Source: Azolla caroliniana
Lineage: Eukaryota > Plantae > Polypodiophyta
Length of the DNA: 64,000 nt
NCBI GenBank assembly: GCA_043228905.1
Contig: JBHGNT010000017.1
Location: 7,502,001-7,566,000 of the forward strand
Direction: 5' to 3'
Shown: positions 9,875 through 61,570 of the stretch, one piece after another
How the letters are laid out: the number at the start of each line of letters is the position of its first letter
Position numbering within the stretch: position 1 is the stretch's first letter
The notes under the pieces: generated by a model
Databases searched by the model: none
Seen by the model: only the letters and a program-made list of their open reading frames with translations
What the model was told of the DNA's origin: nothing
Program-made: the position numbers and the translations under genes

Positions 9875-10287
9875 GTTGTATGTATGTATATGTTATATGG
9901 GTGTGTATGTTTTATACATGTACTTTATATATATATACCTGTCATTAGTGTAAATATTTTAAAAGATTTTAGACTATATAATATGTCTATGTATGTCAGT
10001 GTGTATTTTCTATTGATGTACATATGTATGTATTGTATTGCATGTGGATATATGTATGTGTGTGTATGTACATATTGTATTGTATTGTATTAAATGCGTT
10101 GTATGTATTGTACGTATGGAGTGTGTGTATGTGTATGTATGTGTATGTATGTATGTTCTTTACATGTGCATCTGTACTATGTGTGTATTTGTGCATACAA
10201 TACAATATATACATACAATAAATACATATATATGTGCATATGTATGTGTATGGATCGTATATGGATATACGTTTGTAATATGTACAT
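9875..10287. repeat. TA/TG-rich low-complexity microsatellite tract, continuing at 18988-19400 and 19740-19970
   Basis: (TATG)n/(TG)n mosaic, split by the 10288-18983 insertion. Confidence 0.85.
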
Positions 10288-13156
10288 TGTCGTGCCTTTC
10301 GGCGTCAGATTGTTGCGTGAGTCGGGTGGGAACCACTGGGGTTTTCGACTAGGAGGAGGAAGAATTTGAGACGAGTCTAGTTATGAATAGATTATTAGAA
10401 AGAGAGATAGAAACTTGTGAATCCCACAAGTATAGTTGTTTTAGTTTATCTTAATCGTAGTAATAAATTGAAATAGTTTAGAATACATTAGAGTAGATTG
10501 AGAAAAGAGATCAAAACTTCTGAATCCCACAAGTATTATATTAATCAATATTTATGTAAGAAAATGAATGTAGATTGAAAGAGAAGGATATAGAAACCTC
10601 GTGAATCCCATGAGTATAGGTTATTTCGTGAATCCCACGAATATAGTTTATTAATTGATGTTTTTTAGAAATATATCCAATTTCCAAATATTCCACACCC
10701 TTATTACATTGTGCTCCCCATCCTTATATAGTAATGAGAGAGTCTTGGCAATCCATGCTTTTTCTCTAATTATGCCCTCCATGCTTTTTCTATCAATAGA
10801 CTATATGCTTTCTCTAACATGCTTTTTCTAAAGTCATGCGTTTTTTTTATCGACTATAGTGTTCATGCACGCTAAATGTGCATGTGTAGCTTTTTCTTTT
10901 ATCATGCATTTTCCTAAAGTTTATCCTAGCATGAGCTTAACTTTCTATGTGGGACATCTAATTTTTGACACTAATGATATGTTAGTGTATTGGTAAGGCT
11001 TCACATTATTAACATAGAGGTACAAGGTTTGAAGCTTGCCCTATGCATGTATGATGTATTTTAACATTTTCTTCTATTTCTTCATATTTATTGAATCGGT
11101 TATTTATACGTTTTTCACGTAGTGTACAAAATACACTACGACACTCGCCCCCTCCGAACTCGCACATCGTCCGGTATGTGCCGAAGTTGTCGGTGATTGT
11201 CAGTCTCCTCCGTCCGGTCTCCGCCTGATTGGTTTCTTTGCCAGTCCCGTTGTGGGTTCTGTTCAGTTGCAGGTTGTCGGCTCTGCCCAGTCACTGGTTC
11301 TCGTAATTCTCCTTTACTCGTAGTACCCTTCGTTTCTCTCGCTATGTCGACTTTGTCTCTCCATTTTGAGCATATCCATTGTTTCCACCCGAACCATTCT
11401 CGCCATCCGATCCACCATAGTCTTCGTTCACTGTTTGCATGGCCATGGCCGATTGTCACGGCTCCTCGTGCTCCTCTTGAGCACTTCATGTCTTGTGCAT
11501 GTGCCATGCTTCCCACTTTGTCCACTTTTGTCATATAATCTCACGTTAGAGTTGGCAATCTTCATGTTATAGCCCTCCTTTGTCGAGATCTCATCCTTGG
11601 TAACACCCTTCAAATTTGCTTGGCCCACTTGGTCCTTGTCATCCTTTGTAGTGCACCTGCTTGACCTCTTCCTCGTAATCGTCAGCCTTGATCTCTTGGA
11701 CCTCTGGTTGAGTCGGATTAGCTTATTTCCGAATCGGTCTCGTCCAATCGTCTTTTGGTTGAATCGGCTTCCGTTCCGATTTGTATTCAGCCGATTCAGA
11801 CTCGGTTGATCGGTTTTTACCGATTCGGCCCCCTTTCGGGCCGGTTTCGACCAATCGATTTTCGTTCGAATTTGTTTCCTTTTCCTTGTTTTCACCGACC
11901 TCGACCGGTTCGACCTCTGACACTTCTTTCCATTGTCCGCTGTGTAGGTCCTCCGATTGGGCCCCAGGTCACTCCGATTGCACGTCGAATTCTGCCCCTC
12001 ACGTGACACCTTCGTTCCTCCTTTGGCTTGATCGTCCCCTCATCCTAAGCATCTCGTCATGCTGTCCCTCTCCGTTCCGCGCTTGCCTTCCGTAGGCTCT
12101 ACCCACACGTCGATGCCGACCTCCAAATATGCGCTTGCTCTTAGGTCCTTGTGCGGCTATAATGCACACTTCATTTTTCTCCGTAGTGCTTGCGTCGTAT
12201 TACGCCGTAGTGCATGCGTCGTATTACGCCGTAGTGCATGCTCCATTTTGCGCCATAGCGCGTGCTCCATATTACACGCTTCTCCCGACGCAGACCCGAC
12301 CTCCCCGTTGTCATGCTTTCGTTTAGATCAAAATTTTAGCCGGATCATCTTCCATCCGAACCGGCTTCCAACTTTACCTTCCTCACCAGCATCTCTTGTC
12401 TCTCCGGTCTTATGTTGCTTCTCGGACACAATTGCCGAAGTCTCTAGAACTAGTGGTGGGAAAGTTTTCATACGACCATCCGCCATTGCTTCGTCCATAG
12501 CCACCTCCAATTCTATGTCATCTTTTGTGGCGACCTCCTCAATCAAGTCCGCCTCACACTCTTTATCTCCCTCGATCATGCAAGCATCGATTATGCTTAC
12601 CCCTTTTTCACCCGATGTTTCGGATACTTGTATTCCGAAACCTTCTTCCGTTCTTGAAGTGGTGTTCGCCACTCTCAAGTCATCGACCTTATCCTTGGCC
12701 GTCGTTCTTTCGCAAGACAAGAGGATGCCTTGTTCCACACCCTCTCCCGTGGTACTATTGAATCGGCCTTCGGCCTTCGTATTAGCCACATCATTCATCC
12801 TTAATTGATCATCCCTCATACGCCATGTTGTTGCCGACAATATTCTCGTCTTCCTCTTATCATATCTTTGGCATACTCTTTCGACTTCAGCCCAATCCTC
12901 GGTAAGGACATTTGCACCATCATCATCTTCGAGTTCGATCCCAATGTCCATCCTTTCTTTCCGATCAATCGATCTTACGAACATTAGGACTTTATCCTCC
13001 CCCACCAATCTTTGTTCCCGCTCCGAGAGTTGAGAAAAATGATACTCAAACTCTAGGAATGCTTGTGTTACGCATCGGTGGGTCTTCTCCGATGCCACCC
13101 ATTCGTCGAACTCGCGCCAATCTCGTCCCTTTGGTCTCTCGTAATCATATGCTTCC

Positions 13157-16100
13157 TGTTGAGATATCAAGCTCAACTAGTTTAATCTAGTTAGTCAACA
13201 CATGTAACTTAGTAGTTACCTAGATCGAATCTAGTTAATGTGTTGACCTTAAGCCTTTAAATAAGACCTTGTACTTAAGTGGGATATTCTAGATCCTCCA
13301 CTCCTTAGTACATTTAATGTAGGACTTACACATAAGTACCTATGTTCTACTCACACATGTGCACCTTTGCACATGGGTTGTATATAAACCTCATTCTGGG
13401 TATTTTTGTATGTTGGTGACACTTTTCAATATAGTCAATCATCCCCCATTTATCTTCGTGTTCAAGTGTAACTTCCTCTCTCTCTCTCTCTTCCTCTCAC
13501 ACACTCTCACGTGCATATCATACTAATCTTCCGTTGCTTAACGTAACCATATAATTAGTCTCTAATTAACCCTAGTTAATTACCTAATTACTTAACATGG
13601 TATCAGAGTGCGTGGTTTAGGAAATCCACTAAGCCCACTGCTTATTCGTGATTGTGTGTTCGAAATGCCGACGACAAATCCCGGCTATTCGCTATCCGCT
13701 ACCGTAGTGCCGCTACGAAGGACGTGTACGTGACCAAGAGAAGAAAAACAAAACGAAAGACACAACAATCAACATGAACACACAAATGGGAAGCTCACTC
13801 CCTAGCGAAAAGCTAGACCGAAGCAACTATTCATCTTGGGAGTACAAGATGAATCAATACCTTGTCGGCCAAGGGTATTGGAGCTACATTAACGGCGCAC
13901 AAGAAAACAAACCCGAAATCACACACGCCAACTACCCAACGTGGGAGCAAGACGCGAGTTGGGTAATGTATTGCTTGGCAACATGTGTAAACGACCACAT
14001 GCTTAGCCACATTCGTGACGCCAAGACGCCCAAAGAGGCATGGGAAAATCTCAAGAAGGTTTTCGCCGTGGACACATCCGCGCGCAAGCTTCAACTCTGG
14101 CAAGAGTTGAACAACATACGACAAAAAGAAATGTCTGTGACGGACTACACCGCCAAGATCAAGAGCATTTGAGACTCTCTTGGCTCCATCAACGTCAACA
14201 TCGACGAAGATGAGATGGTGCAAGTATGCTTGGGCGACCTTGCACAACGATTCAACCCGTTGAGAACAACAATCTTGGCGAGAGATACCCCTCCCTCGTT
14301 CTTCAACCTCCAATCAATGCTATTGGTCGAAGAAAACCACGTTCAATCAAAGACTAACACATTGGAAGGAAAAATGCTCTTCTCCGATATGGATGGTGCC
14401 CATAGACGAGGTCGAAGCGGAAGAGGTCAATTCGACCTATCCCACGAAGGGAATTCACAATTTCAGCAAGGAAACGGAAGCCATCGAGGAACCTTCACAA
14501 GAAGGCAGGGCTTCCACGCCGAACAAGGTCGGTGAACGACACCACCTATGTGCAACTATTGCGGAAAAATCGGCCATCGCGAAGAGGAGTGCTGAAAAAG
14601 ACGAAGCGAGTCGGCTTCAACAAGCCGGCAACTCACAAATTACACTGCGAACGCGGAATACGCGGACTACAGCGGACTCTTCGTGATGAGGCATAGAGCG
14701 AACTCTATGATGGCCTCCAATCCCGCAAACTCCGCAAGCACCTCCAACTCTGAACACGCGTGGTTCGTAGACTCCGGTGCCTCGCACCACATGACGTCGC
14801 ACCAAGAGTAGTTTCGCGACTTGCGAACGCCGGATCGACCCGGCTACATAGAGACCGGAGACGACACTCTGCATCCCATTCGGCACATTGGCGATGTCCC
14901 ATTTGGGAAAGAAGGCGAGCAAACCTGCATCAAGAATGTCTTGCACGTTGTCATGAAGAAAACCGCCCACAAGAGGAATCGGAGGAACAAGGCGTGGGAA
15001 ACGGCTCTACACACACACGCGCGCCAAGAAGTACCTAAGGACGAAGTAGGTACATACGAGGATCCTAGGTGGGTAGATTCGGTTGGTATGCAGTTAATGC
15101 CAAACGGCCTCTTGACGGGCTATAAAAGGAAGAGGAAGAATAGAAGTGGGGTATCTCCCGCGGAGAGGACGAAGTGCTGCCGAACCGATTTTGGAGCTTC
15201 TCTCTCACTCCTGCTCTCTCTGTCTTCTGCTCCATCGCGTACCTGTGCAGGTTTCGAGGAGGCTTGCGCTGTTCCGTGGAACGCCCCGAGTGCGTCCTGC
15301 AGCACCTCCGACCTGTTTTCCCTTTTTGTGCGTCGCGACATACAGGGGTCGGCAGCTGTTCGCCGCCCTGTTCGTTTTCGTTAGTATCTATTTTGTGCCC
15401 CACCGTGGGTTGTAATACTTTAGTCTGTTATTTTCTTGCATTCATAAGCGCATATCTCTCGTTGTTGCGTCCATCTGCGTCGGCGTTTATTTGTGATCTC
15501 TGTTTGTTGGGCCGTGTCCCTGTGCAATCGTCGGTTCTGCGCAATCGGATCTTCGGTTCTGTGTAATCGGGTCTCTCTCTCTTACTCCTCTCTCTCTTGC
15601 TCTTCGGTTCGAGACCCCCGTGGTCCCTCCTCCTTTCTACACGCAAGGGCGTAGCAACCCCGACAACGTGCCCACAATAACAAAGAATTTGGTCTCAGTC
15701 GGCCAAATCGTGGAGCAAGGCATGCAAGTCTGCTTCAACAATGAAGGTTGCTTCATCAAGAAAGACGGCCGACTCATAGCCAAGGGACGGAGAGATGGTC
15801 GCTTGTTCATCCTCGACTCGAACGAGGTAAAATCGGCTATGTACGCTAAAGCTCTCAAGACTGAGACAAACATCGAGTTGTGGCACAAGCGAATCGGCCA
15901 CATAAACCTCCAATGACTTCGCGGAATGCAATCAAAGGGAGTCGTACTCAAACTTCCGGCCTTCGAATCAAAACGAGTTGACCGAGTGTGCGAAGCATGC
16001 CAACTCGGCAAACAATATCGACTCCCATTCCCGAAGGAGAGCTCTGCAAGCAAAGGCCTCCTTGACATAATCCACTCGGACGTATGGGGACCGGCTCAAA

Positions 16101-17844
16101 CGCCGACGCTCGATGGATGCCGCTACTACGTCACATTCATCGACGACCACTCGCGCTACGCGTGGATATACCCGATGAAGAAGAAGAGCGAAGTGTTGTC
16201 TCACTTTCAAAGGCTCAAACACCAAGTGTAGAAAGAAACCAGTCGGCACATTCGATGCCTACGATCGGACGGAGGAAATGAGTACTTCTCTGACGAGTTC
16301 ACCTCCTACCTCCAAGGTGAAGGCATTCATAGAGAATTCTCATGCCGACACACTCCCCAAAAAAATGGAGTCGCTGAAAGGAAGAATCGGCAAATACTTA
16401 AGGTAGCACGCGCCATGATGCATGAGAAGCAGATGCCAAATTTCTATTGGGCCGAAGCGGCATCCACGGCCCTCTATCTCATGAATCGGTGCACCACCAA
16501 TGGATTCCACGAGCTAACTCCATATGAGCTCCTCGTCGGAAGGAAGCACATCCTCTCGCACCTCAAGGTGTTTGGAAGCATTGCGAATGTACGCATCCCG
16601 AACGAAAGTCGAGAGAAGCCCAACGTGAAGTCAGAAGAATGTATCCTCATAGGATACTTGTCCAAGAAAAAGGCGTACAAGTGCTTCAACCCTTCGACCT
16701 GAGCGGTGCGGATAAGTCGCGATGTCGTTTTCGACGAATCGGCATCTTGGTATAAGCTCGATGCGACTCCATCTGACCCAATCGAGGAAGAGTTGAACGC
16801 CAACTCGGACGATGAAACTCAGCCAAGTCCTCCACCGAAGGACATTCCAAGCTCTACCGAGCTAATTGGCCCACAAGAGCCTCCACGCGATGAAAACACG
16901 TCGCGGCCAAGTCCGACATCGGACAAAGGCAAAGGTAAGATGCCCAAATACGAAGTCGAGGTCCACCCCGACGACTGTGATTCGAATGATTCAGCTCGCT
17001 CACTAGACAGTGAGTTTGGTGTACCCATCATGAGGACACCCGGAGTAAAGAGGGTGCTCACATCGACAAACAAGAAACTCCACCGCTCATCACAAGCGAA
17101 GACCCAAGTCACTCGTTACGCCTACAACGAGTATATGGCCCATCACTATGCCCTCGCGATGAAGGTAGTGGCCGAACAAGAGCCCGAGGATCCAAGCCTT
17201 CGTCACAAGCTTGAGGGGGAGAATAAGCCGCGAAGAGCCGCGCAAAAAAGCCGTAGAGAGCCGCGCAACGAGGCCGCGAAGACGCGGAGAGCCACGCAAC
17301 GAAGCCACGAAGCCGCGAGGAAAGTCGCAAGCCGCACCGATGCCGACGAAGCCAAAGGAAGCTAAACCGGATGTTGGACGCCTCACACTTGAGCTTGAGG
17401 GGGCGTGTTGAGATATCAAGCTCAACTAGTTTAATCTAGTTAGTCAACACATGTAACTTAGTAGTTACCTAGATCGAATCTAGTTAATGTGTTGACCTTA
17501 AGCCTTTAAATAGGACCTTGTACTTAAGTGGGATATTCTAGATCCTCCACTCCTTAGTACAATTAATGTAGGACTTACACATAAGTACCTATGTTCTACC
17601 CACACATGTGCACCTTTGCACATGGGTTGTATATATACCTCATTATGGGTATTTTTGTATGTTGATGACACTTTTCAATATAGTCAATCATCCCCCATTT
17701 ATCTTCGTGTTCAAGTGTAACTTCCTCTCTCTCTCTCTTCCTCTCACACACCCTCACGTGCATATCATACTAATCTTCTGTTGCTTAACGTAACCATATA
17801 ATTAGTCTCTAATTAACCCTAGTTAATGATCTAATTACTTAACA
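13157..17844 (+). mobile_element. Ty1/copia element (second family) lacking RT and RNase H
   Basis: LTRs 13157-13597 and 17406-17844, TSD CTTCC, PBS TGGTATCAGAG at 13598, PPT 17397-17405. gag/PR/IN occur with stops (13774-17190) and no RT follows. Confidence 0.93.
14949..15665 (+). mobile_element. Solo LTR (Trp-PBS group) inserted in copia coding sequence
   Basis: TGTCA..CGACA termini with 4-bp TSD ACGT (14945-14948 and 15666-15669). Removing it restores NVLHVPTITKNL. Confidence 0.9.
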
Positions 17845-19429
17845 CTTCCAATATAGCTTTCTCAAAGGAGACCCACATTGGTTTTTGTTGTCGTATATCG
17901 TAGATGCTCTCTTGGAAGTCGTCTATGGCCACCCGACTGAAGGATATCACTTGCAAACCTTTTGGTATCCCACATTGCACCATCTCCGCCTTGTATTCAC
18001 ATAGATAGTGTGACGCATTCTTTCCGTTGAATTGTTCATTTCGTTGTACGAGCCGTTTTACTGCCGTCGTCATGTCTGACATCGCTCGTTGTTCTTGTAG
18101 CATCCGCTCGAGCATCATCATCATCATTTTCATCGCCTCTTTTTGATTCTCCATCTCCTTGCCACCTGTCTTCACGTCAGGTTCACCACTTGTGTCGTGC
18201 CTTTCGGCGTCAGATCGTTGTGTGAGTCGGGTGGGAACCATTGGGGTTTTCGACTAGGAGGAGGAAGAATTTGAGACGAGTCTAGTTATGAATAGATTAT
18301 TAGAAAGAGAGATAGAAACTTGTGAATCCCACAAGTATAGTTGTTTTAGTTTATCTTAATCGTAGTAATAAATTGAAATAGTTTAGAATACATTAGAGTA
18401 GATTGAGAAAAGAGATCAAAACTTCTGAATCCCATAAGTATTATATTAATCAATATTTATGTAAGAATATGAATGTAGATTGAAAGAGAAGGATATAGAA
18501 ACCTCGTGAATCCCATGACTATAGTTTCCACACCCTTATTACATTGTGCTCCCCTTCCTTATATAGTGATGAGAGAGTCTTGGCAATCCATGCTTTTTCT
18601 CTAATTATGCCCTCCATGCTTTTTCTATCAATAGACTATATGCTTTCTCTAACATGCTTTTTCTAAAGTCATGCGTTTTTTTTTATCAACTATAGTGTTC
18701 ATGCACGCTAAATGTGCATGTGTAGCTTTTTCTTTTATCATGCGTTTTCCTAAAGTTTATCCTAGCATGAACTTACCTTTCTATGTGAGACATCTATCAA
18801 TTTTTTATACTAATGATATGTTAGTGTAATGGTAAGGCTTCACATTATTAACATGGAGGTATAAGGTTTGAATCTTGCCCTATGCATGTATGATGTATTT
18901 TAACATTTTCATCTATTTCTTTATATTTATTCAATCGGTTATTTTATACGTTTTTCACCTACTGTACAAAATATACTACGACAACGTAATATGCACTGAT
19001 ATATCCGACATGTGTGTATGTATGTATATATGTAAGTATTGTAGTTTGTATGGCCCCATATAACCTATAGATATATATATATATATGGCGATATGTGGAA
19101 TATGTATGTATGTATAGATAATGTAATGCATCAGATTCTATGTATGTATATGTGTAATGTATGTAAATTTGTATATTGTGTAATATGTATGGATTATATG
19201 ATATGTAATTGTAATTTTTTATGTGTATGTGTATATATAATGTGTAATTTATTTATGTATGTATATTTTTTGTGTTTGGTATGTATATTTTTATGTGCAT
19301 AATAATATATGTGTGCAATAAATAATATACAAAATATGTTTATAAGCATGTGTATGTGTATATGTAATATGTACTTTTTATCCATGTATTATTGTGTGTC
19401 AATACATATGGCTTTTTTTTTGTTTCTTT

Positions 19430-24959: not shown

Positions 24960-24961
<2 letters not shown>

Positions 24962-25009
<48 letters not shown>
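24962..25009. repeat. (GT)n microsatellite
   Basis: About 24 perfect GT units. Confidence 0.95.
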
Positions 25010-25012
<3 letters not shown>

Positions 25013-27310: not shown

Positions 27311-27369
27311 GGGAGGAGTTGTCTGATCTTTTCGTCCAGATTCAGTTTTGGACAACTGTTGGCGAAAGT

Positions 27370-33130: not shown

Positions 33131-33134
33131 ATTA

Positions 33135-46200: not shown

Positions 46201-46769
46201 ATAGTGCTGGAAGGATGTACTGATATTGCAAATAGGAACATTGCCTCCTTGTGTCCTTCTTCGCGTAATTGATGGAGTGAAATGGTCGAAACTCGGTGAG
46301 TAGATTCTTGGGGTGGTCGATATCGGACTTCTCTTGTTCTCCAATCTATGGCTGGATTATGTAATTCAAACCAAGGTAATCCTAGGACAATGGGATGCTC
46401 TGGACTACTAATTATATTAAATGATATTACACACACAAAACTACCTAGGATAACTTGAATGGGTTCTGATTCTTCTACAATATTCCCGGAAGCAATGGGA
46501 CGACCATCAATGACTACTACAGATGCGGGACAAGGAAGTTTTCTTAGGGATATCTGAGAAGCTTGGGCAAAATTTCGATCCATGAAACAGGAATTAGCTC
46601 CGGAATCTAAGAGTGCTAGGACGAGTACTGGGGGAGTACTTTTAGTACTAACAATGACTTGGGCTAGGAACACATTGCTAACTTGCTTGGAAGGAATGGA
46701 ACCACTAATGGGCTGTACAGATCTAGGGTTGTTGTCCAACCAAATGGCTCCTATTTTGGCTGGACTCAA
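43221..46769 (-). pseudogene. Chromovirus pol (PR, RT, RNase H, IN, chromodomain) with two in-frame stops
   Basis: Motifs LLDSGA, YLDDLL, EADASD, HDTHTAGH..C..C, GQAER and YEVAAILD. TAG stops at 44247 and 43932, no frameshift. Confidence 0.93.
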
Positions 46770-47923: not shown

Positions 47924-50900
47924 AGTATAGGGAAAAGGGTAGGAGGATGAGGGAGAATGACAAGTAGGTTGGAGGAAAGGAAAAATTGGTTCAAACTGTC
48001 AGGAATAGTACTAAAGCAGAGATGGAGTTAGTACTAAGAAGAGCAGTACTATTAGTACTAAGAGGACTGGACTGTGTAAGATTCCCGAGAGAGGAAGTGA
48101 GAAGAGGAGAGAGAGAGATAGCGAGGATGAAAGAGAGAGAAAGATGATGACAACAGCTAATATATTATGTGAAAAGATAAGTACAAGCGACTAAGAGGCT
48201 TAAGACTGGCGTTGAACCAATTTGGTTCAACATAATGCCTAGTGCCTTCTTTTATAGTGTTGTCAGGAGTAATCCTGAAACTTCTAGAATGTTCCAGAGA
48301 AATCTGGAATATACATTACTTTCTTATAATAAAACATAAATGAAAATAATATCCTATGAATTACAATAGATGGTGTGATGGTTAAGAGCTTGACCCATAT
48401 ACCATAAGGTCATGGGTTCAAGTCTTGCCATATCATGACACATGTGGCGAAGGATAACAGAGCAAAGCTGGATCCGAAGTCTCGACCATGCATATTCCTT
48501 GGATACGGCAATGATGAGTTCGGTTACCGGGTGTGGGATCTAGTCGACAAGAAGGTGTTCCGGAGTCGGGACATAGTCTTCATGGAAGACAAGACCATTG
48601 CCGACTAGGAGTCGGCGAAGAAGATGATGAACTCTGGATCATCCAATGAAAGACCGGCTTGAGGACACAAGGATATACCCGGATGTTAGCCGGTAACCAG
48701 ATGACACTCGACAAACCGGCCGGATACGGACAAGAAACCGAACCGACCGAAGAAGAAGAAGAAGAAGACACCAGAACCGAAGATCTCGAATCGGATTCAG
48801 ATTCGGAACAACCAGAGGAACTAGTAGTCAGAAACCGAGGATGGAGATATCCTCTCCGAGAGAGAAGAGCCCCCCGGAGATTTCCGAATGCAGAGCACGT
48901 GTTCCTAAGCGATGAGGGGGAGCCGGAAAGTTTCAAAGAAGCAAAGAGAGACACCCACAGCTGCAAGTGGTTGAGTGTCATGCAGGATGAGATGGATTCC
49001 CTCCATGAGAACGGCATATATGAACTGACAGAGTTGCTGAAAGGGAAGAGAGCACTCCGGAACAAGTGGGTGTACAAGCTGAAACCGGGAAATCCACCAA
49101 GGTATAAGGCCCAAATTGTGGTGAAGGGCTTCTAGCATTGCGACCTCGAAGAAGAAATCTACATGCATCAACCATAAGGATTTGAGAAGAAAGGGAAGGA
49201 GCTCATAGTGTGCCAACTGAAGAAGAGCCTATATAGACTAAAGCAAGCCCCCAATGGTACTGGAAGTTTGACTCCTTCATATGACCGACCAAGGGTACCA
49301 CAAAACACAAGCCAATCATTGCGTGTTTGTGAAGAAATTTGAGAAAGGAGATTTCCTAATACTCCTATATGTGGATGATATGTTGATTGTCGGTCGAGAC
49401 CAAGTCAAGATACGGATGCTGAAGAAGGCTCTGAACCGAACCTTCTCAATGAAAGACTTGGGGTCGGCAAGACAAATATTGGGAATGCACATCATCCGGG
49501 ACCGGTCGAAGAAGCTGTTGTGGTTGTCACAGGAAAAGTACGTGACAAAGGTAATCCAAAGGTTCAACATGTCGGAGGCAAAACTGGTCGGATCGACAAT
49601 TCCGGCAAATTGCAAGCTATCCGGAAAACAAAGCCCAAGGACAAAGGCGGAGAAGATGGATATGATGAAGATACCATATGCCTCTGCCGTCGGGAGCTTG
49701 ATGTACGCAATGGTATGTACCCGGCTGGATATCGGATATGCAGTCGGAGTGGTGAGCCGGTTCATGAGCAATCCAGGAAAAGAGGACTAGAACATGGTCA
49801 AGTGGATACTCCGGTACTTGAAAGGCACCTCAAGTATGTGCCTCCGGTTCGGCTCTAATAATACCCAACTTAATGGATTCACGGATTCGGATATAGCGGC
49901 TAATGCAGATACCCACCGATCTACATCCAAATATGTCATGACTTATGCAGGGGGAGCTGTATCATGGCAGTCGAGGCTGCAGAAGACGGTTATATTGTCA
50001 ACCACGGAGGCGGAGTACATGGCAGCTATAGAAGCCGACAAGGAGATAATCTGGATGAATGGCTTCATCGAAGAGCTAGGGATCCAACAGGAGGAATAAC
50101 GGCTCTATTGCGGCAGTCAAAGTGCCATCCACCTTGCAAAGAACGCGGCCTACCATTCCCGGACGAAACATATCCAGTGGAGGTACCATTGGATCTGGGA
50201 GAGAGTAGAAGATCAAGAGTTCATGTTGGCGAAGATCCACACAGAGGAGAACGGGTCGGATATGCTAGCCAAGGTGTTGACAACCGACAAGTTGGACACA
50301 TGCCGAAAGCGGATCGGGTTGACAAGACATCCCATGCCGGAGTGAAGGGGGAGATTGTTGGGAAATCGGTCCCTCTGGATGGGATCCGGCTATGAATGAA
50401 GAGATCCAGAAACCGGATTGGATGGACCCGGTGAGAGCCAGAAGAGAAGACAGATTTGTAAATATGTCTTGAGTAAGCCTATTGAGGCTACATTTGTAAA
50501 TAGCCCTAAGTTCATATAAGTATAAATATGATTTAGGGCAATCAATTTAGGTGTAAGTGAGTGTGGTTGTTGTCATGTTGTTGTTTAGAGAGAGGGGGAG
50601 AGAGATACAGAGCGATACTTTGTTGTAACCGCCGCCTGGCGAAGAAACCAAGCTCAAGGTCATTGCCTACGTGTCTCTGATTGTACCCCTTCTCTTCATA
50701 GTGATACTTTGGAGTCTGTGGGCTCCTGTGGTTTTTCCCTATTAGGGTTTTCCACGGAAACATCCTGTGTTCACTCTTTAGTTCACATTTCTGTGTTCTC
50801 CATTCTCATCGAAGACTTGGTTGTGGCCGAGCAATATTCCGCATGATTCTCTTCAAACACCTTGATACCAGTAGCACATGTTCTCGAAAACTTGATGAAA

Positions 50901-51574: not shown

Positions 51575-52844
51575 CTCTTGTAAAAATATAGATTTTAGTA
51601 CAATTCGAGTTCATGTTTAAAAAAGTTTTTTTATTTGGAAAAAAAAGAACATTTTTAAACATGAACCCAATACATTGTATCAAGTTGATGTAAAAATTAG
51701 AGTTTTCATCACAATTCGATACAATGTATCGAATTCATGTTGAGAGTTTCTTTTTTTTTGGAAATAAAACTTTGAACTCAAGTTGATGTAAAAAATAGAT
51801 TTTTCATTACAACTCGATATAATATATCGAATTCATGTTTAAAGTCTTCTTCTTCTTTTTATTTTTTATTTATTTGTTACTCCATGGAATCAGGGGCGGA
51901 TGGACTATGAGATCGAAAATCATTAACGCTCTAATGATTAGGGAATCTGCTACTCAAAGGACAACAATGGAGAAATGGATAGGCCACGAGGAGGAGGGAT
52001 CTCTGTCGGTGGGAGCATGGCAACGTGGGAACCTTAGCTCTCCTTATTGTGTAGAGTGCCCACATGCAGTAGAATCAATACGGCACGCTCTATGGGACTG
52101 CCCAACGTCCCATCGAATATGGCGGGGGGTTGGCCACTTGTTGCAATTATGCCAGATGCAAGGCTCAATCAAGTGGGGAAATATATGTTGGCTATCATGG
52201 CAGGCCGCAATTGGCAGATACGAGCATCAAGAGGAGGGGATGACTTTGGTGATAAAAGCACAAGAGGTCTTTTTCTCCTGTAGCGGCAATGTCCACTCCA
52301 CTCTTCTTAATATGACAAATCTCAAGAGGTGTTCGAATTGGCTAGCCCAATAACTCTTTGGATTCTATGAAAACAACAATGTAGGTGAGTCTTCTCCAAC
52401 CAAACCGCACATCCAACAAGGTTACTGCAAGAGATATGGAGTGAAATTGTAGCCACTCTTAAGAGCTAACATGATGGCCTTAAGGGCGACTTCGAAGGAG
52501 TTGAAAGACAATGAATAGACTTCATCCAACAATGGTCGTCCTCTCCCTTTCTTGAGTCAGTGGGCATCCACATAAGATGGACCTATCGCGTCCCTTCATG
52601 GATTTGTACATAAATCATCTCATTTGTAAAATTTTATAACTAATGGAAGGAGTTTGTTTTTGGGAAAAAAAAAAACTTTAAACATGAATTCGATACATTG
52701 TATCAAATTGTGATGAAATCTCTGGTTTTAACATCAACTCCGGTTCAAAGATCCCCCCCCCTCCCCCCCAAAGAAAAAAAACTATGAACATGAATTCGAT
52801 ATATTGTATTGAGTTGATGCAAAAAACAGAGTTTTCACCACAAC
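51575..52844. repeat. Array of alternating inverted AT-rich repeats (AACATGAATTCGATACATTGTATC..) split by a LINE fragment
   Basis: Units at 51575-51845 and 52675-52844. Confidence 0.65.
51880..52674 (+). mobile_element. L1-like LINE 3' fragment with zf-RVT motif and poly(A)
   Basis: CVECPHAVESIRHALWDCP..IW motif; A-run ending near 52674. Confidence 0.8.
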
Positions 52845-54997
52845 TGAGTCTCACTCACTCAATGGAAGAAAATAGAAAACAGAAAATAAGACGACACAAG
52901 AGTATTAACGTGGAAAACCTGAAGAGGCAAAACCATGGGAGTTCTCGGAACTCCGAACAAGATCACTATAGAGGAGAGGTACAACAATGTCACACTCAGA
53001 GGCAACGACCTCGAGCTCTACCTTCGCCAGAAAAGCTTTTTGTATCTCTCTCTCTCTCTCTCTCTGTACAATGATAAGTACAATGATGATCACAAAAAAA
53101 ACCATACAAACATTGTTGCCCTAGTTATATTTATACTTATATACTTTAGGACGATTTACAAATATGACCTGAAATGATCATGTTTGAACATATTTACTAA
53201 TATGTTCGTCCATGTTTGTTCATATTGGATCCGACTAGACTCCTTCCGGATCCATCCGATCCGGTATCTAAATACCTTCCGAATCCATCAGATCTGGTTC
53301 TCATCCAAAGGGACCTGTTTCCCAACAAACTCCCCCTTCACTCCGGCATGGGATGTCTTGTCAATCCGATCCGTTTTTTGTACTCGTCTACCTTGTCGGT
53401 TGACAGTACCTTGCTCATCATATTCGATTCGTTTTCTTCCGTGTGGATCTTTACCAGTGTGAAGTCTTTCTCTTCTACTCTCTCCCGGAGCTAGTGGTAT
53501 CTATGCTGGATCTGCTTCTTCCTAGAGTGGTATGTCACATTCTTTGCAAGGTGGCTGACACTTTGATTATCGCAGTGGAGCCAGTATTCCTCCTGTCGGA
53601 TCCCCAACTCTCCGATGAAGTCCTTCATCCAAACTATCTCCTTGTCAGCTTCCGGGCTGCCATGTACTCCGCTTCCGTTGTCGACAGTGCAATGGATTTC
53701 TGTAGTCTGATTGCGACGATACGATTCCCTTTGCATATATCATAACATATCCGGATGTGGACCGACTGGTATCTACATCAATCGACATGTCTGAATCCGT
53801 AAAGCCTTCGAATAGGGGTTTACCGAGCTGAATCGGAGGCATATGTTCGAGGTGCCTTTCAAGTATCGGAGTATCCACTTGACCGCAGTCCAATGTTCTG
53901 TTCTCGGATTGCTCATGAACTGGCTGACCACCCTGACTACATATTCGATATCAGGTTGGGTACACACCATTGCATACATCAAGCTTCTAAAGACAGAGTC
54001 GTATGGTATCTTCATCATCTCCGACTTCTCTATCTTGGTATTTGGGCTTTCCTTCCCGAAAAGCTTGTAATTTGCCGGAAGTGTCGACCTGACCAACTTG
54101 GCATCCATCATGTTGAACCTTTGAAGCACCTTTGTCACATACTTCTCTTGTGACAGCCACAATTGCTTCTTCTTACGGTCCTGGACTACGTGCATCCCCA
54201 ATATCTGTCTCGCTGGGCCCAAGTCTTTCATTGAGAAGGTTTAGTTTAGGGCCTTCTTCAGATTCCCGATTTTGATTCGGTTCGATCTGACGATCAACAT
54301 TAACAAGAGTATTAGGAAGTTGCCTCCATCGAAATTCTTCATGAACACATAGTGATCGGCCAACGTCTTGTGGTAGGTATCCTTAGTCGGTTATGAAGGA
54401 GTTGAACTTCCGGTACCATTGTCAGGGAACTTGTTTCAATTTGTATAAACTCTTATTAAACCGGCACAGTAGGTGCTCCTTCCCTTTCTTGACAAACCCT
54501 TCCAGCTGTTGCATGTAGATCTCTTCTTTGAGGTCACCGTTCAGGAACGTTGTCTTGACGTCTAGTTGTTCAACCTCGAGGTCTATGCTTGCCACAATGC
54601 TCAACCCTGTCCGGATGGCCGTCATCTTGACTACTGGGGCAAAGATTTCGTCAAAGTCCACTTCTTTCTTCTGTTGAAAGCCCTTCACCACGATGTGAGC
54701 TTTGTACCTCGATGGATTTCCGGCGTCTCCCGGTTTTAGCTTGTACACCCACTTATTCTAGAGCGCCCTCTTTCCTTTCGGTAGCTCCGTCAATTCATAG
54801 GTGTGGTTCTCCTGCAGGGAATCCATCTCGTCCTGCATGGTAGTTAACCACTTGCAGTTGTGGGTGTCTTTCTTTGCTTCTTTGAAGCTTTCCGGCTCCC
54901 CCTCATCGGTTAGTAAAACGTGCTTTGCGTCCGGAAATCTCCAGGGGGTCCTTTTCTTTCTTAGAGGATATCTCCGTCCTTTGTTTTCAACCACCGG

Positions 54998-56002
54998 TGT
55001 CGTGTGGTTTTTCACACACGATATGAAAACTAGTAAAATAAGTATCTTCAAGATATGGGAAGATAGATATCTTCAAGAGCTTCATAATGCATTTTTCTAC
55101 GCATGGAACGGATAAAGAAGTAGCAAGTTATGTGTGTGTGAAGTTTGAGAAGAAGAGATGGAGCCGGCAATCGGCAATCGGCAACCGGACGGCAATAGAA
55201 CGAAAACCGGACACGGACCGGACGAATCAAATGGGCAACAGTCGAGATGGACGGATGATAGGATCATGCGGCGAATTAAAGTAAAGCAAAGTAAAGTAAA
55301 AGTAAAGGCGAAGCAACTAAAAAAGGAGGCCATGCAACTAAAAATAAAGGCCAAGCAACTAAACGGGGACGCATGCAAAGGATCATGGGAGGCTATGATC
55401 AATGGAGAACTCCATATATATTCATATATATTCCATATTTTTTTGGTCACTTGGGCCGCTCTCCATTATTTTTCTTTTCCTTCTTGGTTCCCTTATCTCA
55501 TGGAGCCATAACACTCTTAAACACTAATTTTCCTTACGGAAGCTATCTCTCACAGAAACCCTAATTTCCTTACGGAAGCTAACTCTCGTATAACCTAATT
55601 CTAATTTTCCCTACGAAAGCCATAAGACTCAAAAAACCCTAATTTTCCCTACGGAAACAATAACACTCAAAAACCCTAATTTTCCCTACGGAAGCCATAT
55701 CTCTCATAAACCCTAATTTCCCTATGGAAGCCATAAGACTCAAAAACCTTAATTTTCCCTACGGAAGCCATATCTCTCAAAACCCCTAATTTTTCTTTTC
55801 TATTAATCTCAGTAAACCTAAAACTTCTGAATCCCAATCTTGGGACATATTGTAATTTCTTTTCCTTTGCTAATGAAAAATTACTAAATTTTCTCCTTTC
55901 TATTAATTGTTAAAAGTATAAACACACGAATGTGATGTCCTCTAGTCGGAGGCCCCGAGGTCCTGCCTAAAGTTCACGTATCCCTGTCGTATTTTCGCAA
56001 CA
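54998..56002 (+). mobile_element. Solo LTR (Trp-PBS group) with an internal tandem array
   Basis: TGTCG..CAACA termini with 4-bp TSD CCGG (54994-54997 and 56003-56006). Removing it restores the host frame EEPVVENKGRRYP. Confidence 0.88.
55502..55795. repeat. About 8 copies of a ~37-bp unit containing AAACCCTAA
   Basis: Consensus GAAGCCATA.(a/t)CTCA.AAACCCTAATTTTCCCTACG. Confidence 0.9.
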
Positions 56003-56821
56003 CCGGCTCCTCCGTTTGTTCTTCATCCTAATCTGATTTGGGGTCTTGTCCGGTTCTGGTGTCTGATTCTTCTTCTTCGATCGATTCGGTTCTTTGTCCG
56101 AATTTGGCTGGTTCATCATGGTCTTCGGCTGACATCCGGCTTCCGACCGGATGCGTTGTCGCGAAGTTTCGCGAGTACGTGTAGATCCTAGGCGGGACCA
56201 CGGGGGTCTTGGACTAGGGAGAAGAGGAGAAGTTTAAGACAACGAATGGAAGATTAGCTCAAGAGCAGAAGAGAACGAATATGACATTATGATAGAAGAA
56301 GAAGAAGAAGATGCAATCAAGATACTCAACAAGAAGTTCTATTAAGAAATGAATGATTACAATAATCGTGGCCGCATAGGCCGCACCTCTTCCCACGATA
56401 TATGAAAACGTAAGAGAATTAGTAGGAAGAAGAAGAAATAAGAAAACCCTAAGCGAACCCTAACCCTAAAACGAAATGGGAAGAAGGAGGACCCTAGACT
56501 AAGTGGTATACCTCACTCACACTCAAAATTAGGCAACCCCTTCAAATGTGACCCCTCACTCCCCTGTATAGATGTAAGGGGTGAGGCCCAATACAAGATG
56601 AGTGGTCAAATTCCCCCCTTCTCCTTTTCAAAGGAGAATATTTGATCTCGATCTTGAGACCGTCAACCATAACTCTCACTCACCTAGCCGTCCTATTCAA
56701 TGCCCATCACTCATACACTCTTGTTCCTTATGTACCTCTCCCTAGTCTACAAGTGCACATCACATTTACTCTCCACGAATTCCGTGGTGCCCCTTTGGCA
56801 CCTTAGATTATTACCCTTCCC

Positions 56822-59269
56822 TTACATTTTGGCTATCTTATTCTTATTACACAAATATACAAGTGCATGTGCACATGTTGCACACCACCGATTTGCCCTT
56901 TCTATCCCGGTTTCACATCGTGGCTGGAAATCTTCACGACATCCACCCCCACCAAACCGCACATCCACCGGTATGTGCCAAGAGGGAAAATGTGAGAGAT
57001 TCTGGCGACGGTGATCAACCGGGTCCTCTGTCGTCTCGGCATCCGTCCGCCTTGCCGGCTCCTTACCGGCCCGATCCGTCAGCTCCATCCGATCCACCAC
57101 GCCCACTGCGTCTCCTTGAACCACCAACTCCATCTGATCCCACCATATCCGATGTACGTCCCCGACCTGTTGGCTCCACCCGATCCGCCATATCCATCGT
57201 TCGTGCTTTCCTCCCCGTTCGGTCCTCCCGAACATCATTGCCAACCCGGTCTCCCTTCCTTTGTCCACCACGCATCTCCTCCGGATGTGCTCCCGATCTC
57301 TCCGATCGCACGCCGGATTCCGCCCTTTGCGTGCCACGTATTTTCCTCCTTTGGTTTTATCGTCTCCGCATGCCAAACACCTCGACGTGTCGACTCTTGC
57401 CGCTTCGCACTTGCCTTCCGTAGGCTCTTCCCGTGCGCCGATGTTGTCCCCCGAATATGCGCTCATTCTTTGGTCCTTAGGCGACCCCATTCCGCGCTCC
57501 TTGCCTCTCCTTTGCCTATCGTGCTCTCTCGCCGTAGAGCATACTGTCATCCCGACCTCCGTGTCGGTGTCCCTCGAGGCTCTCGTTACCGCTTCGCCTC
57601 GACTTGCGCCCTCTTGGCCCGCTTGGCCTTGCATGCCCTCCGGGAAGCCGCGCTTCCTCTTCCCGGCGCGTAACCCGTTGCTCTCCGCGCACCTTCTTCG
57701 GTTCTCAAGACATAGCCTTCCGTGCTCACCGATCATCCGCCAATACCGGAACCCCACCACTCTATCTCTCGCCGCGTGCTTGCCTCTCAAAGGCTCGACC
57801 GGTCTGCTATTTCCAGTCACTCGTTGTAGCTCTCTCGAATGCATGCTCGTTCTTGGACCCTTCACCGACCGTAATGCATGCTTCGTGTTACGCCCTTCAT
57901 CCGCCGTAGACCCGACCTCCACGTCGGCCACTTCTTCCTTTGTCACCGTAGCCCGTTCCGACTCGGGCTCGCCATCTTGGACCCGCTCGTCCATCATCTC
58001 ATACCGGATACCCGTTCCAATAACTTTTTCCGCTTCGACCTCCGACTCCTCGCCGCCACCCGCCGTCTCTCCGGTCTCACGTTGATCCGCAACCGCCAAA
58101 GTCTCTAGAATGGGTGTGGAAGGTCCCTCTCGCTCTCGGTCTTCTAGCAAGCCGTGATCACCGTGCCCGCTAGGCCTCCTCAATATGCTCACCGGCTCTC
58201 GTCGCGTGTTGTGACCCGTCCTCCCCGATCTCCAATCGGACCGGCATAGCCTTCGCCCGGATCGGTCTCGACCAATCGTGATCCGGTTCGGGCTTCTCTC
58301 TTTCACAATTGTCACCGGCCGAACGATCCCGACCTTGCCGACTTTTCTTCGGTTTGGGCCCGGTTCGCCGGCCCTCGCTCCATTCTTCTTTCGCGCCGTC
58401 TTCTGGTCGTGCTGGTTCCCAACTCTCCCCTTTCCACTCCCGACCTCTCCGTCGGTCCTCTTGTATATGCCCGTTCCGGGCCTCGCATCCTCATCTTCGT
58501 ACATACTCGCTCCAGGCCACGCCTCCTCATGGCCACCGCCCATCTCTCCGGTCTCACGTTGGCACTTGGGCACAACCGCTGAAGTCTCCAGCCCCAGTGT
58601 CGAGGGTTCTTGCCTCCGTCCGCTCCAATCTTCCTCATCATCATTTTGGTCAACCACCTTGCCGCCGCCGCCGCCCGTCGCTCTAGGCCACACGCCGACA
58701 CTCGGGCCGACCACCGGAGCCTCTAGGACTGGTGTGGGTAATTTCCCAGCACCTCCGCTTGTCATTGTTGTAGCCGTCTTTTTCCGGACGTCGTTGTCCG
58801 CGGCTTCCCCATCTCCGATTCCGCAAGCCTCGATTATGTTTGCCACCCCTTCTTCCTCGCTTTCCTTGCCATTGTCTTGGTTGCCCTCCTTGTCGCCGCC
58901 ACTGCCCGTCGCTCTAGGTCTCACGCCGGCACTCGGGCCGACCGCCGGAGCCTCTAGGACCGGTGTGGGTAAGGACTCGGCACCGCCACTCATTTCATTC
59001 GTAGCCACCTCCATTCGGTCATCGTCGTCCGTGGCTACCCCGTCTTCATTTACGCTTGCCGCCACCTCTTCCTCGTCGTTCTCGCCGTCGTGGTTGCCCA
59101 CCTTGCCGCCGCCACCGCCCGTCGCTCTAGGTCTCATGTCGGCACTCGGGCTGGCCGCCGGAGCCTCTAGGACTGGTGTGGGTAATGTCCCGGCACCGCC
59201 GCTCATTGTGTCCGTAGCCGCCTCCGTTCGGACGTCGTTGACCGTGGCCAACCACCTCCGTTTATGCAA
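56822..59269 (-). CDS. 815-aa low-complexity repeat ORF downstream of gag, function unknown
   Basis: Open frame with three LPTPVLEAP..GPS..PRATG.GG repeats, running into the 3' LTR. Expression is unproven. Confidence 0.35.
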   Translation of the reverse strand: MHKRRWLATVNDVRTEAATDTMSGGAGTLPTPVLEAPAASPSADMRPRATGGGGGKVGNHDGENDEEEVAASVNEDGVATDDDDRMEVATNEMSGGAESLPTPVLEAPAVGPSAGVRPRATGSGGDKEGNQDNGKESEEEGVANIIEACGIGDGEAADNDVRKKTATTMTSGGAGKLPTPVLEAPVVGPSVGVWPRATGGGGGKVVDQNDDEEDWSGRRQEPSTLGLETSAVVPKCQRETGEMGGGHEEAWPGASMYEDEDARPGTGIYKRTDGEVGSGKGRVGNQHDQKTARKKNGARAGEPGPNRRKVGKVGIVRPVTIVKERSPNRITIGRDRSGRRLCRSDWRSGRTGHNTRREPVSILRRPSGHGDHGLLEDREREGPSTPILETLAVADQRETGETAGGGEESEVEAEKVIGTGIRYEMMDERVQDGEPESERATVTKEEVADVEVGSTADEGRNTKHALRSVKGPRTSMHSRELQRVTGNSRPVEPLRGKHAARDRVVGFRYWRMIGEHGRLCLENRRRCAESNGLRAGKRKRGFPEGMQGQAGQEGASRGEAVTRASRDTDTEVGMTVCSTAREHDRQRRGKERGMGSPKDQRMSAYSGDNIGAREEPTEGKCEAARVDTSRCLACGDDKTKGGKYVARKGRNPACDRRDREHIRRRCVVDKGRETGLAMMFGRTERGGKHERWIWRIGWSQQVGDVHRIWWDQMELVVQGDAVGVVDRMELTDRAGKEPARRTDAETTEDPVDHRRQNLSHFPSWHIPVDVRFGGGGCREDFQPRCETGIERANRWCATCAHALVYLCNKNKIAKM

Positions 59270-60105
59270 GCCTCAATTATGCTTGCCGCCTCCCCTTCGT
59301 CGTCGTTTCGGCCACCCACCTTCTCGCTTAATGTTTTGGGCCATCGTGCCCCGAATCCTCCACCCACTCTCGAAGTGGCGCTTCCCGCTCCGTAGTCATT
59401 GGCCTCATCCATGGTTGTCCATTCGCCACAAGACGAGAGGGTCACTCGCTCCACACCCTCTCCCATGTCGCCGTTGCACGCTCTTTCGTCCTCCGCATAG
59501 GCCCTGTCCTCCACGTGTAGGGAGGCTTCTTCCTCCGCATCCTTCGATCCGCTTGGGCCCAACTCCGTAATAAGCCCTTCCTCGGCTTCGAACTTCACCT
59601 TCACGCTCTCGCACGCCTCCCATACCAACGCCTCGAAGTCGTACTCCTCCGGTTGATCGCACGTCAAGCTCTTTTCCGGCGGTGGTGTGTAGCCGCCCAC
59701 CACCCTCTCCTTTCCGTCGCTCGTGGGCCAAGTCGTTGCCGACCACTCCCTATCATATAGCCGGCATACCCACTTTGGTTTCGCGTATCCGTATGCCTTC
59801 ATCAGAGCTCCCTAGAAGGACTCCCATAACTCGTGAGCTTCTTGAAGCTCCTTGACCTCTTTATGCACCGATACGGCCGCCACTCGATGAAAATACTCTA
59901 GCCGCATCGCTTCGTCCACGCCCCACTCCGTCATCTCGGCATCGTACGCTTCCAAGAACCTCGGGACATCGTCCCCGTTGAATTGGCCGACTCGATCGAC
60001 CACCCTCTCGACGGCTTGCTGAGCCGCATCTCGCCTCGCCTTTTTCCATCGCGCATCCATTACGATCTTTGCCATCATCTCCTCGAAGTCGAAGTCTTCT
60101 TCCAT
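59203..60105 (-). pseudogene. gag-like ORF of copy 2 with an in-frame stop at 59812
   Basis: GQFNGDDVPRFLEAYDAEM..WESF is homologous to EQFNGKNASHYLCEYKAEM..WVSF in copy 1. Confidence 0.65.
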
Positions 60106-61570
60106 CTCCGTCCTCCCTTGCCGCCTCTTCACGCCGGGTTCACCAAAGATGTCGCGAAGTTTCGCGAGTACGTGTAGATCCTAGGCGGGACCACGGGGGT
60201 CTTGGACTAGGGAGAAGAGGAGAAAGGTTAAGACAACGAATGGAAGATTAGCTCAAGAGAAGAGAACGAATATGACATTATGATAGAAGAAGAAGAAGAA
60301 GATGCAATCAAGATACTCAACAAGAAGTTCTATTAAGAAATGAATGATTACAATAATCGTGGCCGCATAGGCCGCACCCCTTCCCACGATATATGAAAAT
60401 GTAAGAGAATTAGTAGGAAGAAGAAGAAATACGAAAACCCTAAGCGAACCCTAACCCTAAAACGAAATGGGAAGAAGGAGGACCCTAGACTAAGTGGTAT
60501 ACCTCACTCACACTCAAAATTAGGCAACCCCTTCAAATGTGACCCCTCACTCCCCTTTATAGATGTAAGGGGTGAGGCCCAATACAAGATGAGTGATCAA
60601 ATTCCCCCCTTCTCCTTTTCAAAGGAGAATATTTGATCTCGATCTTGAGACCGTCAACCATAACTCTCACTCACCTAGCCGTCCTATTCAATGCCCATCA
60701 CTCCTACACTCTTGTTCCTTATGTACCTCTCCCTAGTCTACAAGTGCACATCACATTTACTCTCCACGAATTCCGTGGTGCCCCTTTGGCACCTTAGATT
60801 ATTACCCTTCCCTTACATTTTGGCTATCTTATTCTTATTACACAAATATACAAGTGCATGTGCACATGTTGCACACCACCGATTTGCCCTTTCTATCCCG
60901 GTTTCACACCGTGGCCGGAAATCTTCACAACAGCGTCCTAATATCTTCCAACTGATTTCTCTCGGTCGACCCGGAGTCCACTATCTTCTTCTACAATTCC
61001 CAATTGGCGATGGTCTTATCTTCCATGAAGATTGTCTCTCAACTCCGGAAAACCTTCTTGTCAACCAAGTCCCACACTTGGTAGTCAAACTCATCATCGC
61101 CGTATCCAACGAATATACATGGTTAGGGCTTCGGATCCAATTTTTCTCTCTTGTCCTTTGCAACATGCACATAGGCAAGACAGTCGAACACCTGTAGATG
61201 CCGGTAAGACACGTCTTTATTGGTCCATACTCTCTCTGGTGTGTCTCCGTCGAAGGGCGCTTAAGGTGATATGTTTATGACATAGGTCGTCATCATCAGC
61301 ACCTCAGCCCAAAAGTCTTGGACAACCTAGCATGTGTAAGCATGCTTTGGACTCTCTTCATCACAGTCTAGTTCATCCTTTCGTCCAATCATTGAGCTCC
61401 ACCGTCTTCAGCATGGTGAATTTGAGCCAGATTCCTATCGACCAACAGTACTCCTCGAACTACCCCCAGTATTCGCCTTCGCTGTCCACTCGAACCGTCT
61501 TCAGCTTCGGACCGGTTTCCCTTTCCACTCTCACGTGGTATTCCTTGAAGATAGATAGTACCTGGTCCAG

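What the first reader, a model, noticed from the sequence alone, without database searches (positions are those of the whole stretch)
10284..60936. LTR retrotransposon group that appears to integrate at CpG, with 4-bp NCGN target duplications in four of four insertions
Four insertions with different LTR sequences share TGTCG..CGACA-type termini and a conserved U5 motif, and the two full-length ones have a tRNA-Trp PBS. All have 4-bp TSDs centred on CG: ACAT/ACGT (10284/18984, ACAT being the CpG-deamination product), ACGT (14945/15666), CCGG (54994/56003) and GCGT (56153/60933). For three, the 4-bp length is confirmed by restoring the host copia sequence. The five copia/chromovirus TSDs here are 5 bp with no CG (AGTAC, CTTCC, GTATG, CATGT, AAAAC). 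At a CG frequency of 1/16, four of four would be about 1.5e-5, though the pattern was noticed post hoc. Three landed inside other TEs. Inference: the integrase reads CpG, possibly methyl-CpG, steering insertions into TE heterochromatin. The group may correspond to a non-chromovirus clade of non-seed plants such as Phygy, which I cannot confirm without pol.
Basis: partly seen in the sequence, partly recalled or inferred. Interest (0 to 1): 0.8.

Follow-up and report, generated by a model that had tools for sequence, protein, structure and literature searches.

The report
CpG-targeting Phygy-type retrotransposons
These plant jumping genes really do insert almost only at CG dinucleotides, a habit already published for the Phygy group of moss retrotransposons, and their integrase likely reads the CG sequence itself rather than DNA methylation.

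Summary
Real, and already described. All four insertions and their 4-bp duplications are at the stated places. In public assemblies, 60 of 68 further LTR-flank junctions have CG at the centre against 3.9% background, and 6 of the other 8 are TG/CA decay products. Neumann et al. 2019 list this signature for Phygy: 4 bp, NCGN, tRNA-Trp primer. The window's two full-length copies are gag-only. Autonomous partners with the same U5 motif and primer site carry RT-RH-INT without chromodomain or archaeal RNase H. A liverwort relative has an ACGA duplication. No Phygy reference sequence was available, so membership is likely, not shown. Steering by methyl-CpG is unsupported: I found no reader domain in the integrase, and 86% of the window's other CpGs lie in LTR elements, so nesting is expected. 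New details: the motif sharpens to VCGB, and an invariant Glu sits at a target-contact position. The scan noted a Phygy-like nest elsewhere in this genome (e1-10618240); my word look-ups found no note on the CG rule.

The parts
10288..18983 (-). Element A, gag-only Phygy-type LTR element (holds a nested copia)
   Evidence: LTR pair, PBS, PPT, gag similar to the autonomous partner's gag
18193..18983 (-). A 5' LTR
10288..11143 (-). A 3' LTR
18171..18188 (-). A primer-binding site (tRNA-Trp type; identity of the tRNA recalled)
11144..11155 (-). A polypurine tract
10284..10287 (.). A left TSD copy ACAT (likely deaminated ACGT)
18984..18987 (.). A right TSD copy ACGT
13157..17844 (+). Copia element nested in A's gag, 5-bp TSD CTTCC; target of B
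14949..15665 (+). Element B, solo LTR; TSD ACGT at 14945-14948 and 15666-15669
54998..56002 (+). Element C, solo LTR with internal tandem repeats; TSD CCGG at 54994-54997 and 56003-56006
56157..60932 (-). Element D, gag-only Phygy-type LTR element; TSD GCGT at 56153-56156 and 60933-60936
60150..60932 (-). D 5' LTR
56157..56941 (-). D 3' LTR
60128..60145 (-). D primer-binding site (tRNA-Trp type; identity of the tRNA recalled)
56942..56953 (-). D polypurine tract
59815..60105 (-). D gag N-terminal part, 38-44% identical to the partners' gag; followed by a long repetitive acidic/Gly-rich frame with no Pfam match and no pol
52837..61568 (-). Decayed host copia into which C and D inserted 146 bp apart (ends approximate)

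Best explanation
A, B, C and D are non-autonomous or solo-LTR copies of a non-chromovirus Ty3/gypsy lineage, likely Phygy, that inserts with a 4-bp duplication centred on CG because its integrase likely reads the target sequence directly. Shown: the elements, their TSDs, the CG rule in 60 of 68 further junctions, and autonomous partners with the same U5 motif, PBS and PPT. Inferred: the partners supply RT and integrase in trans to the gag-only copies. Inferred from retroviral intasomes: the 4-bp stagger needs a sharp bend at the central pyrimidine-purine step, and base contacts from the catalytic-core alpha2 region and the C-terminal SH3 loop narrow that step to C-G. An invariant Glu three residues after the second catalytic Asp and a conserved Q-H/K-F loop are untested candidates. 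Nesting in other TEs would follow passively from their 3-5 times higher CpG density; the few TG/CA cores would be later deamination.
For:: TSDs and empty sites; 60 CG, 4 CA, 2 TG, 1 AG, 1 TA of 68; 10 of 12 left junctions CG; CG at positions 2-3 on both sides fits a 4-bp but not a 5-bp duplication; the LTR's own terminal CpG has decayed in 6 of 68, the same count as the TSD core, so about 66 of 68 were likely CG at insertion; TA, the other flexible step, occurs once; among the 60 CG sites T at position 1 and A at position 4 occur once each (35% expected), ACGT 22 times (2.5 expected), G follows in 30 (20% expected). PMC4422553 section 6: 4-bp retroviruses also avoid T at 0 and A at +3 and favour a central YR step, largely independent of chromatin (abstract); partner integrase is zinc-finger, core, SH3 and a short acidic tail, closest to PFV and Ty3 integrases. 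D-R-G-E-L with Glu in 28 of 28 rows; PMC4005685 passages: the equivalent PFV Ala188 touches target bases and is usually compact. Riccia sorocarpa relative (pol 62% identical) has TSD ACGA/ACGA and the same PBS type; published Phygy traits.
Against: No Phygy reference protein could be compared, so the name rests on traits. No biochemical data. 67 of the 68 junctions come from one series of 12 related assemblies, and the search motif selects B/D-like families; C's family was not tested separately. Of 8 solo-like contigs with both ends only 2 have identical TSD copies (both ACGT, the commonest word); I read the rest as chimeric assemblies, which I did not show. The Glu alignment has a one-residue gap against PFV, 3 of 14 further pol proteins carry Asp there and several give no match, and the retroviral contact lies outside the TSD, so its role is speculative. 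Autonomous partners come from metagenome contigs with collapsed repeats (L007 coverage 44), not from this window's assembly.
Confidence: 0.75

Rival explanations
1. The integrase reads methyl-CpG and is thereby steered into methylated TE heterochromatin.
For: TSD CpGs decay to TG/CA (6 of 68), so they were methylated at some time. At least 27 of 68 flanks match TEs in a small library. Phygy is reported nested in Tcn1 in P. patens (PMC6911290 passages) and enriched at centromeres of a liverwort with Tat and Selgy (PMC12885004 passages). A reference title reports an effect of CpG methylation on retroviral integration in vitro (title only).
Against: No chromodomain, MBD or SRA match; the protein ends shortly after the SH3 domain in most homologues. 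Decay equals that of the LTR's own CpG, so methylation after insertion is enough. 86% of the window's other CpGs lie in LTR elements. A quarter of 66 flanks have CG at or below 1.7%, like the window's gene DNA at 1.2-1.6%; A sits in 0.4-1.0% CG DNA.
Confidence: 0.12
2. A host DNA-binding protein that recognises ACGT-core (G-box-like) sites tethers the integration complex, as TFIIIB does for Ty3.
For: ACGT is ninefold over-used and G follows the TSD in half of the sites; C precedes 7 of 12 left junctions, approaching CACGTG (G-box name recalled). The acidic C-terminal tail could bind a partner.
Against: 38 of 60 CG sites are not ACGT. The cut is centred exactly on the CG, where a bound factor would block it; tethered integrases insert beside the factor's site (own knowledge). 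The flank bias matches that of untethered 4-bp retroviral intasomes.
Confidence: 0.06
3. The elements work as described but belong to TatI or to an unnamed sister lineage and not to Phygy.
For: TatI also has 4-bp TSDs and mostly tRNA-Trp (4 elements). Phygy was defined as specific to P. patens, and no P. patens protein was named among my hits.
Against: TatI always has an archaeal RNase H; none was detected in L007, L014 or the Riccia protein. Neumann et al. state NCGN for Phygy alone. Sizes of about 7.3 kb (L007) and 9.9 kb (L124) are near or within Phygy's 7.7-10.0 kb.
Confidence: 0.1

Closest known systems
Phygy clade, non-chromovirus Ty3/gypsy (Neumann et al. 2019, PMC6317226; passages, section 9 and Additional file 5 read)
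   Same: 4-bp TSD with NCGN; tRNA-Trp-type PBS; no chromodomain; no aRH; pol fills the internal region of the autonomous partners; similar size.
   Different: Defined from Physcomitrium patens only; here in an unidentified non-seed plant and in Riccia sorocarpa. The window's copies are gag-only with long repetitive frames. The motif is resolved further (VCGB, ACGT favoured). RT identity to Phygy references not tested.
TatI and Selgy clades (same paper, Additional file 5)
   Same: 4-bp TSD, no chromodomain; TatI mostly tRNA-Trp.
   Different: TatI has aRH, not found here; Selgy uses tRNA-Ala and averages 5 kb; neither is listed with NCGN.
Drosophila errantiviruses of the ZAM subgroup (PMC5408687, passages)
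   Same: The paper lists palindromic targets TATA, CGCG and ATAT for the gypsy, ZAM and Idefix subgroups, so a CG-centred, sequence-specific Ty3/gypsy integrase has a precedent.
   Different: Animal elements with env or derived from such, AGT-type termini and no GPY/F motif; here TG..CA termini, a GPY-type motif and a VCGB target. Likely convergent.
Prototype foamy virus and other 4-bp retroviral intasomes (PMC4422553 abstract and section 6; PMC4005685 passages)
   Same: Best sequence and fold matches in the PDB; 4-bp stagger, central YR step, T avoided at 0 and A at +3.
   Different: Retroviral preference is weak (YR raised by about 63%); here one YR step, CG, takes 88% as observed and about 97% before decay.

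Membership tests
Phygy | RT-RH-INT group with P. patens Phygy references | not testable with these tools
   Reference sequences are in Additional files 1 and 3 of PMC6317226, too large to read. My tree (40 rows, quick, no Phygy, Selgy or OTA reference) puts the partners in a starred clade of 27 rows with Riccia elements, 25% from the window's chromovirus.
Phygy | 4-bp TSD | tested here: met
   CG register on both sides. Only 2 of 8 solo-like metagenome contigs show identical copies.
Phygy | NCGN target | tested here: met
   60 of 68, 10 of 12, 1 of 1 in Riccia
Phygy | tRNA-Trp PBS | tested here: inconclusive
   One conserved PBS in A, D, 17 of 17 unique PBS-side termini (selected on that motif) and Riccia. 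The Trp assignment is recalled; no matching tRNA gene was retrieved.
Phygy | No chromodomain | tested here: met
   the same scan finds the chromodomain of the window's chromovirus
Phygy | No aRH, no extra ORF, coding region fills the element, 7.7-10 kb | tested here: met
   Autonomous partners L007 (about 7.3 kb, slightly under range), L014, L124 (9.9 kb). The window's gag-only copies do not fit this, being non-autonomous.
Phygy | Host P. patens (as first defined) | not tested
   Host of the window not determined; earlier scan notes say fern or moss. The relative in Riccia shows the traits are not confined to P. patens.
TatI | Archaeal RNase H in the polyprotein | tested here: not met
Chromoviruses | Chromodomain at the integrase C-terminus; RT clade | tested here: not met
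Selgy | tRNA-Ala PBS, about 5 kb | tested here: inconclusive
   Partners are 7-10 kb, mostly above Selgy's 4.4-6.7 kb; the PBS identity is recalled as Trp, not Ala

The most novel reading that the evidence does not exclude
This lineage, spread from liverworts to this plant's family of gag-only parasites, has a near-absolute CpG-specific integrase (about 97% CG before decay) whose core, through an unusual acidic residue at the target-contact position, also senses cytosine methylation, making it the first retrotransposon integrase that reads methyl-CpG without a reader domain and so aims at silenced DNA.
Probability: 0.12. Interest if true: 0.7.

Novelty: new member of a known kind. Interest (0 to 1): 0.3.

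Why it matters
The CG rule is published as a one-line exception among plant LTR elements; my searches turned up no study of how it works. This locus adds an independent count, a sharper motif, apparently intact autonomous partners, a liverwort example and candidate residues, which makes the question testable in vitro. A strongly sequence-specific integrase is of interest for how intasomes choose bases, and a CpG preference sends copies into other TEs and away from CpG-poor gene DNA without any chromatin reader. The finding itself is not a new kind of system.

Tried and rejected
No whole genome is held, so the genome-wide logo came from public assemblies. Laying contigs on D's LTR gave only pooled loose ends, no TSD counts. 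A first terminus rule mis-called several ends and was replaced by a weight matrix built from LTR-side bases of PBS-anchored ends. Of 126 motif matches in 123 loci, 21 were PBS-side, 2 duplicates and 35 dropped: 29 judged chance hits, 2 too short and 4 borderline members (L013 ACAC, L060 GCAC, L085 ACGG, L094 ACGG); adding these gives 62 of 72. The scan read 36 of 64 parts of the collection. Gag searches gave only unnamed proteins; cluster look-up named no organism; viral contigs held no relative; the Atlas gave generic retroelement clusters. Scans for a tRNA gene matching the PBS and a text search were uninformative. PMC7466625, PMC6839031 and PMC4522978 (passages) said nothing on this target rule. 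Rejected: chance; a 5-bp TSD (register argument); plain YR flexibility alone (TA 1 of 68); TatI and chromovirus membership. The structure model (pLDDT 79, pTM 0.64) has uncertain domain packing and was not used for contacts.
Full report
Observation. A (10288-18983, minus) has LTRs 96.7% identical and holds a nested copia (13157-17844, TSD CTTCC), which holds solo LTR B (14949-15665). C (54998-56002, solo) and D (56157-60932, LTRs 98.7% identical) sit 146 bp apart in another copia. TSDs are ACAT/ACGT, ACGT, CCGG and GCGT. For B, C and D removing the insert with one 4-bp copy keeps the host frame. A and D have a PBS 4 nt after the 5' LTR, a PPT, a gag start and no pol. The tRNA-Trp label of the PBS is recalled; my scans did not retrieve the tRNA. 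Three of the five control TSDs were confirmed as 5 bp without CG; two I could not place.

Independent test. No genome is held, so I scanned metagenome contigs with the U5 motif shared by B and D (122 loci, 36 of 64 parts read) and added L001. Of 126 matches, 21 were PBS-side, 2 duplicates, 35 dropped (29 chance hits, 2 short, 4 borderline) and 68 unique LTR-flank junctions kept, with termini called from LTR-side bases only. Positions 2-3 after the LTR are CG in 60, CA in 4, TG in 2, AG in 1, TA in 1; flank background is 3.9% (p about 1e-75). With the four borderline rows it is 62 of 72. Left junctions give 10 CG, 1 CA and 1 TG of 12. CG in the same register on both sides fits only a 4-bp duplication. 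Against this, only 2 of 8 solo-like contigs have identical copies on both sides, probably through chimeric assembly, which I did not show. The LTR's own terminal CpG has decayed in 6 of 68, as has the TSD core, so about 97% of targets were likely CG. The motif is VCGB: T first and A last occur once each in 60 (35% expected), ACGT 22 times (2.5 expected), and G follows in 30. Limits: 67 of 68 junctions come from one series of 12 assemblies and the motif picks B/D-like families. Family A is supported separately by loose-end consensus ending ACG beside the T at 10287 in four runs of three studies. C's family was not tested beyond the window.

What the elements are. Loci L007 and L014 carry the same U5 motif, PBS and PPT around gag-protease and an overlapping RT-RH-INT frame. 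Their gag matches the gag pieces of A and D at 25-44%, so they are the likely autonomous partners. Pol has no chromodomain and no archaeal RNase H; the integrase is zinc finger, core and SH3 with a short acidic tail in most homologues, closest to PFV and Ty3 integrases. The named relatives are from Riccia (mostly 51-64%), then Chara and the fungus Zalerion (35-45%). RT-RH is 25% identical to the window's chromovirus; the tree lacks plant non-chromovirus references. One Riccia sorocarpa element, the only one I could fetch, has 99.8% identical LTRs, the same PBS type and TSD ACGA/ACGA.

How it likely works. The gag-only copies keep the LTR ends, PBS and PPT and would borrow RT and integrase (inferred). 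Retroviral intasomes that cut with a 4-bp stagger favour a flexible YR step at the centre and avoid T at 0 and A at +3, largely regardless of chromatin (PMC4422553, abstract and section 6). The V and B flanks here follow that rule. What is special is that YR is narrowed to CG (TA 1 of 68), which needs base contacts. In PFV these come from Ala188 and Arg329 (PMC4005685 passages). At the Ala188/189 place this lineage has Glu in 28 of 28 aligned rows, and its SH3 loop has conserved Gln-His and invariant Lys-Phe; the same paper notes that this position is normally compact and that acidic residues there abolished RSV strand transfer. The alignment has a one-residue gap and three further Riccia proteins have Asp, so this is a candidate only.

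Methylation and heterochromatin. I found no support. Other LTR elements cover 64% of the window's remaining DNA and hold 86% of its CpGs (5.0% against 1.5%), so three of four nested has p 0.55 by bases and 0.90 by CpGs (TE limits drawn by hand). Flank CG density among 66 junctions runs from gene-like to TE-like (quartiles 1.7% and 5.5%); at least 27 of 68 flanks match my small TE library. Decay of the TSD CpG needs only methylation after insertion. For the rival: Phygy nests in Tcn1 in P. patens (PMC6911290 passages) and is enriched at Apopellia centromeres (PMC12885004 passages), and a methylation effect inside the catalytic core cannot be excluded from sequence.

Comparison and novelty. Neumann et al. 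2019 write that Phygy elements have an insertion preference for NCGN, the one exception among plant lineages, and list 186 elements, 4 bp in 100%, tRNA-Trp in 81%, 7.7-10.0 kb. These traits are met where testable; the RT clade is not testable because the reference files (Additional files 1 and 3) were too large to read, and they bear directly on the name. TatI shares 4 bp and Trp but has aRH. A CGCG target is known among Drosophila errantiviruses (PMC5408687 passages). Searches for NCGN (3 papers), Phygy (18 papers) and CG targeting listed no mechanistic study; I read passages of only some of these, and subscription journals are mostly missing.

Verdict. Confirmed observation, known trait, likely new members of Phygy outside P. 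patens, with a sharper motif and testable residues. Interest 0.3.

Noticed in passing
window 34990-39680 (+): Intron-rich host gene with thioredoxin domains, likely a protein disulfide isomerase (first exon matches Thioredoxin); CG 1.2%.
   Followed up: partly
window 38250-38564: 129-bp inverted repeat, 94% complementary, inside an intron of that gene; MITE-like.
   Followed up: no
window 25670-26560: Decayed fragments that look like a PLS-type PPR gene (recalled motif), interrupted by other inserts.
   Followed up: no
window 2823-8135 (-): Very young copia, LTRs differ at 1 of 600 bases, one 1374-codon open frame, inserted in a chromovirus integrase end; TSD AGTAC.
   Followed up: partly
window 42736-48440 (-): Chromovirus with chromodomain, TSD CATGT, and no obvious tRNA PBS after its 5' LTR, as in self-priming Tcn1 elements.
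   Followed up: partly
window 56822-59272 (-); L001; L007 7395-10691: The gag-only elements carry long, repetitive acidic/Gly-rich open frames with no Pfam match (816 codons here, 880-1419 aa in relatives), kept open in several copies; function unexplained.
   Followed up: partly
L001, L007, L078, L116: Elements of this group lie head to tail sharing an LTR, or inserted close to each other's ends; may be tandem arrays, self-insertion or collapsed assembly.
   Followed up: no
window 56187-56227 and 56925-56965; 10304-10347: Summed contig depth of several hundred thousand to a million at the U5 motif and PPT-LTR junction in runs of related plants, hinting at a very large group; the tool warns this is no copy number.
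   Followed up: no
L076 3337-3409 and 4014-4087: Two tRNA-Arg(TCT)-like calls by ARAGORN in a locus of this set, which may relate to the tRNA-Arg-like sites that other scan notes describe.
   Followed up: no
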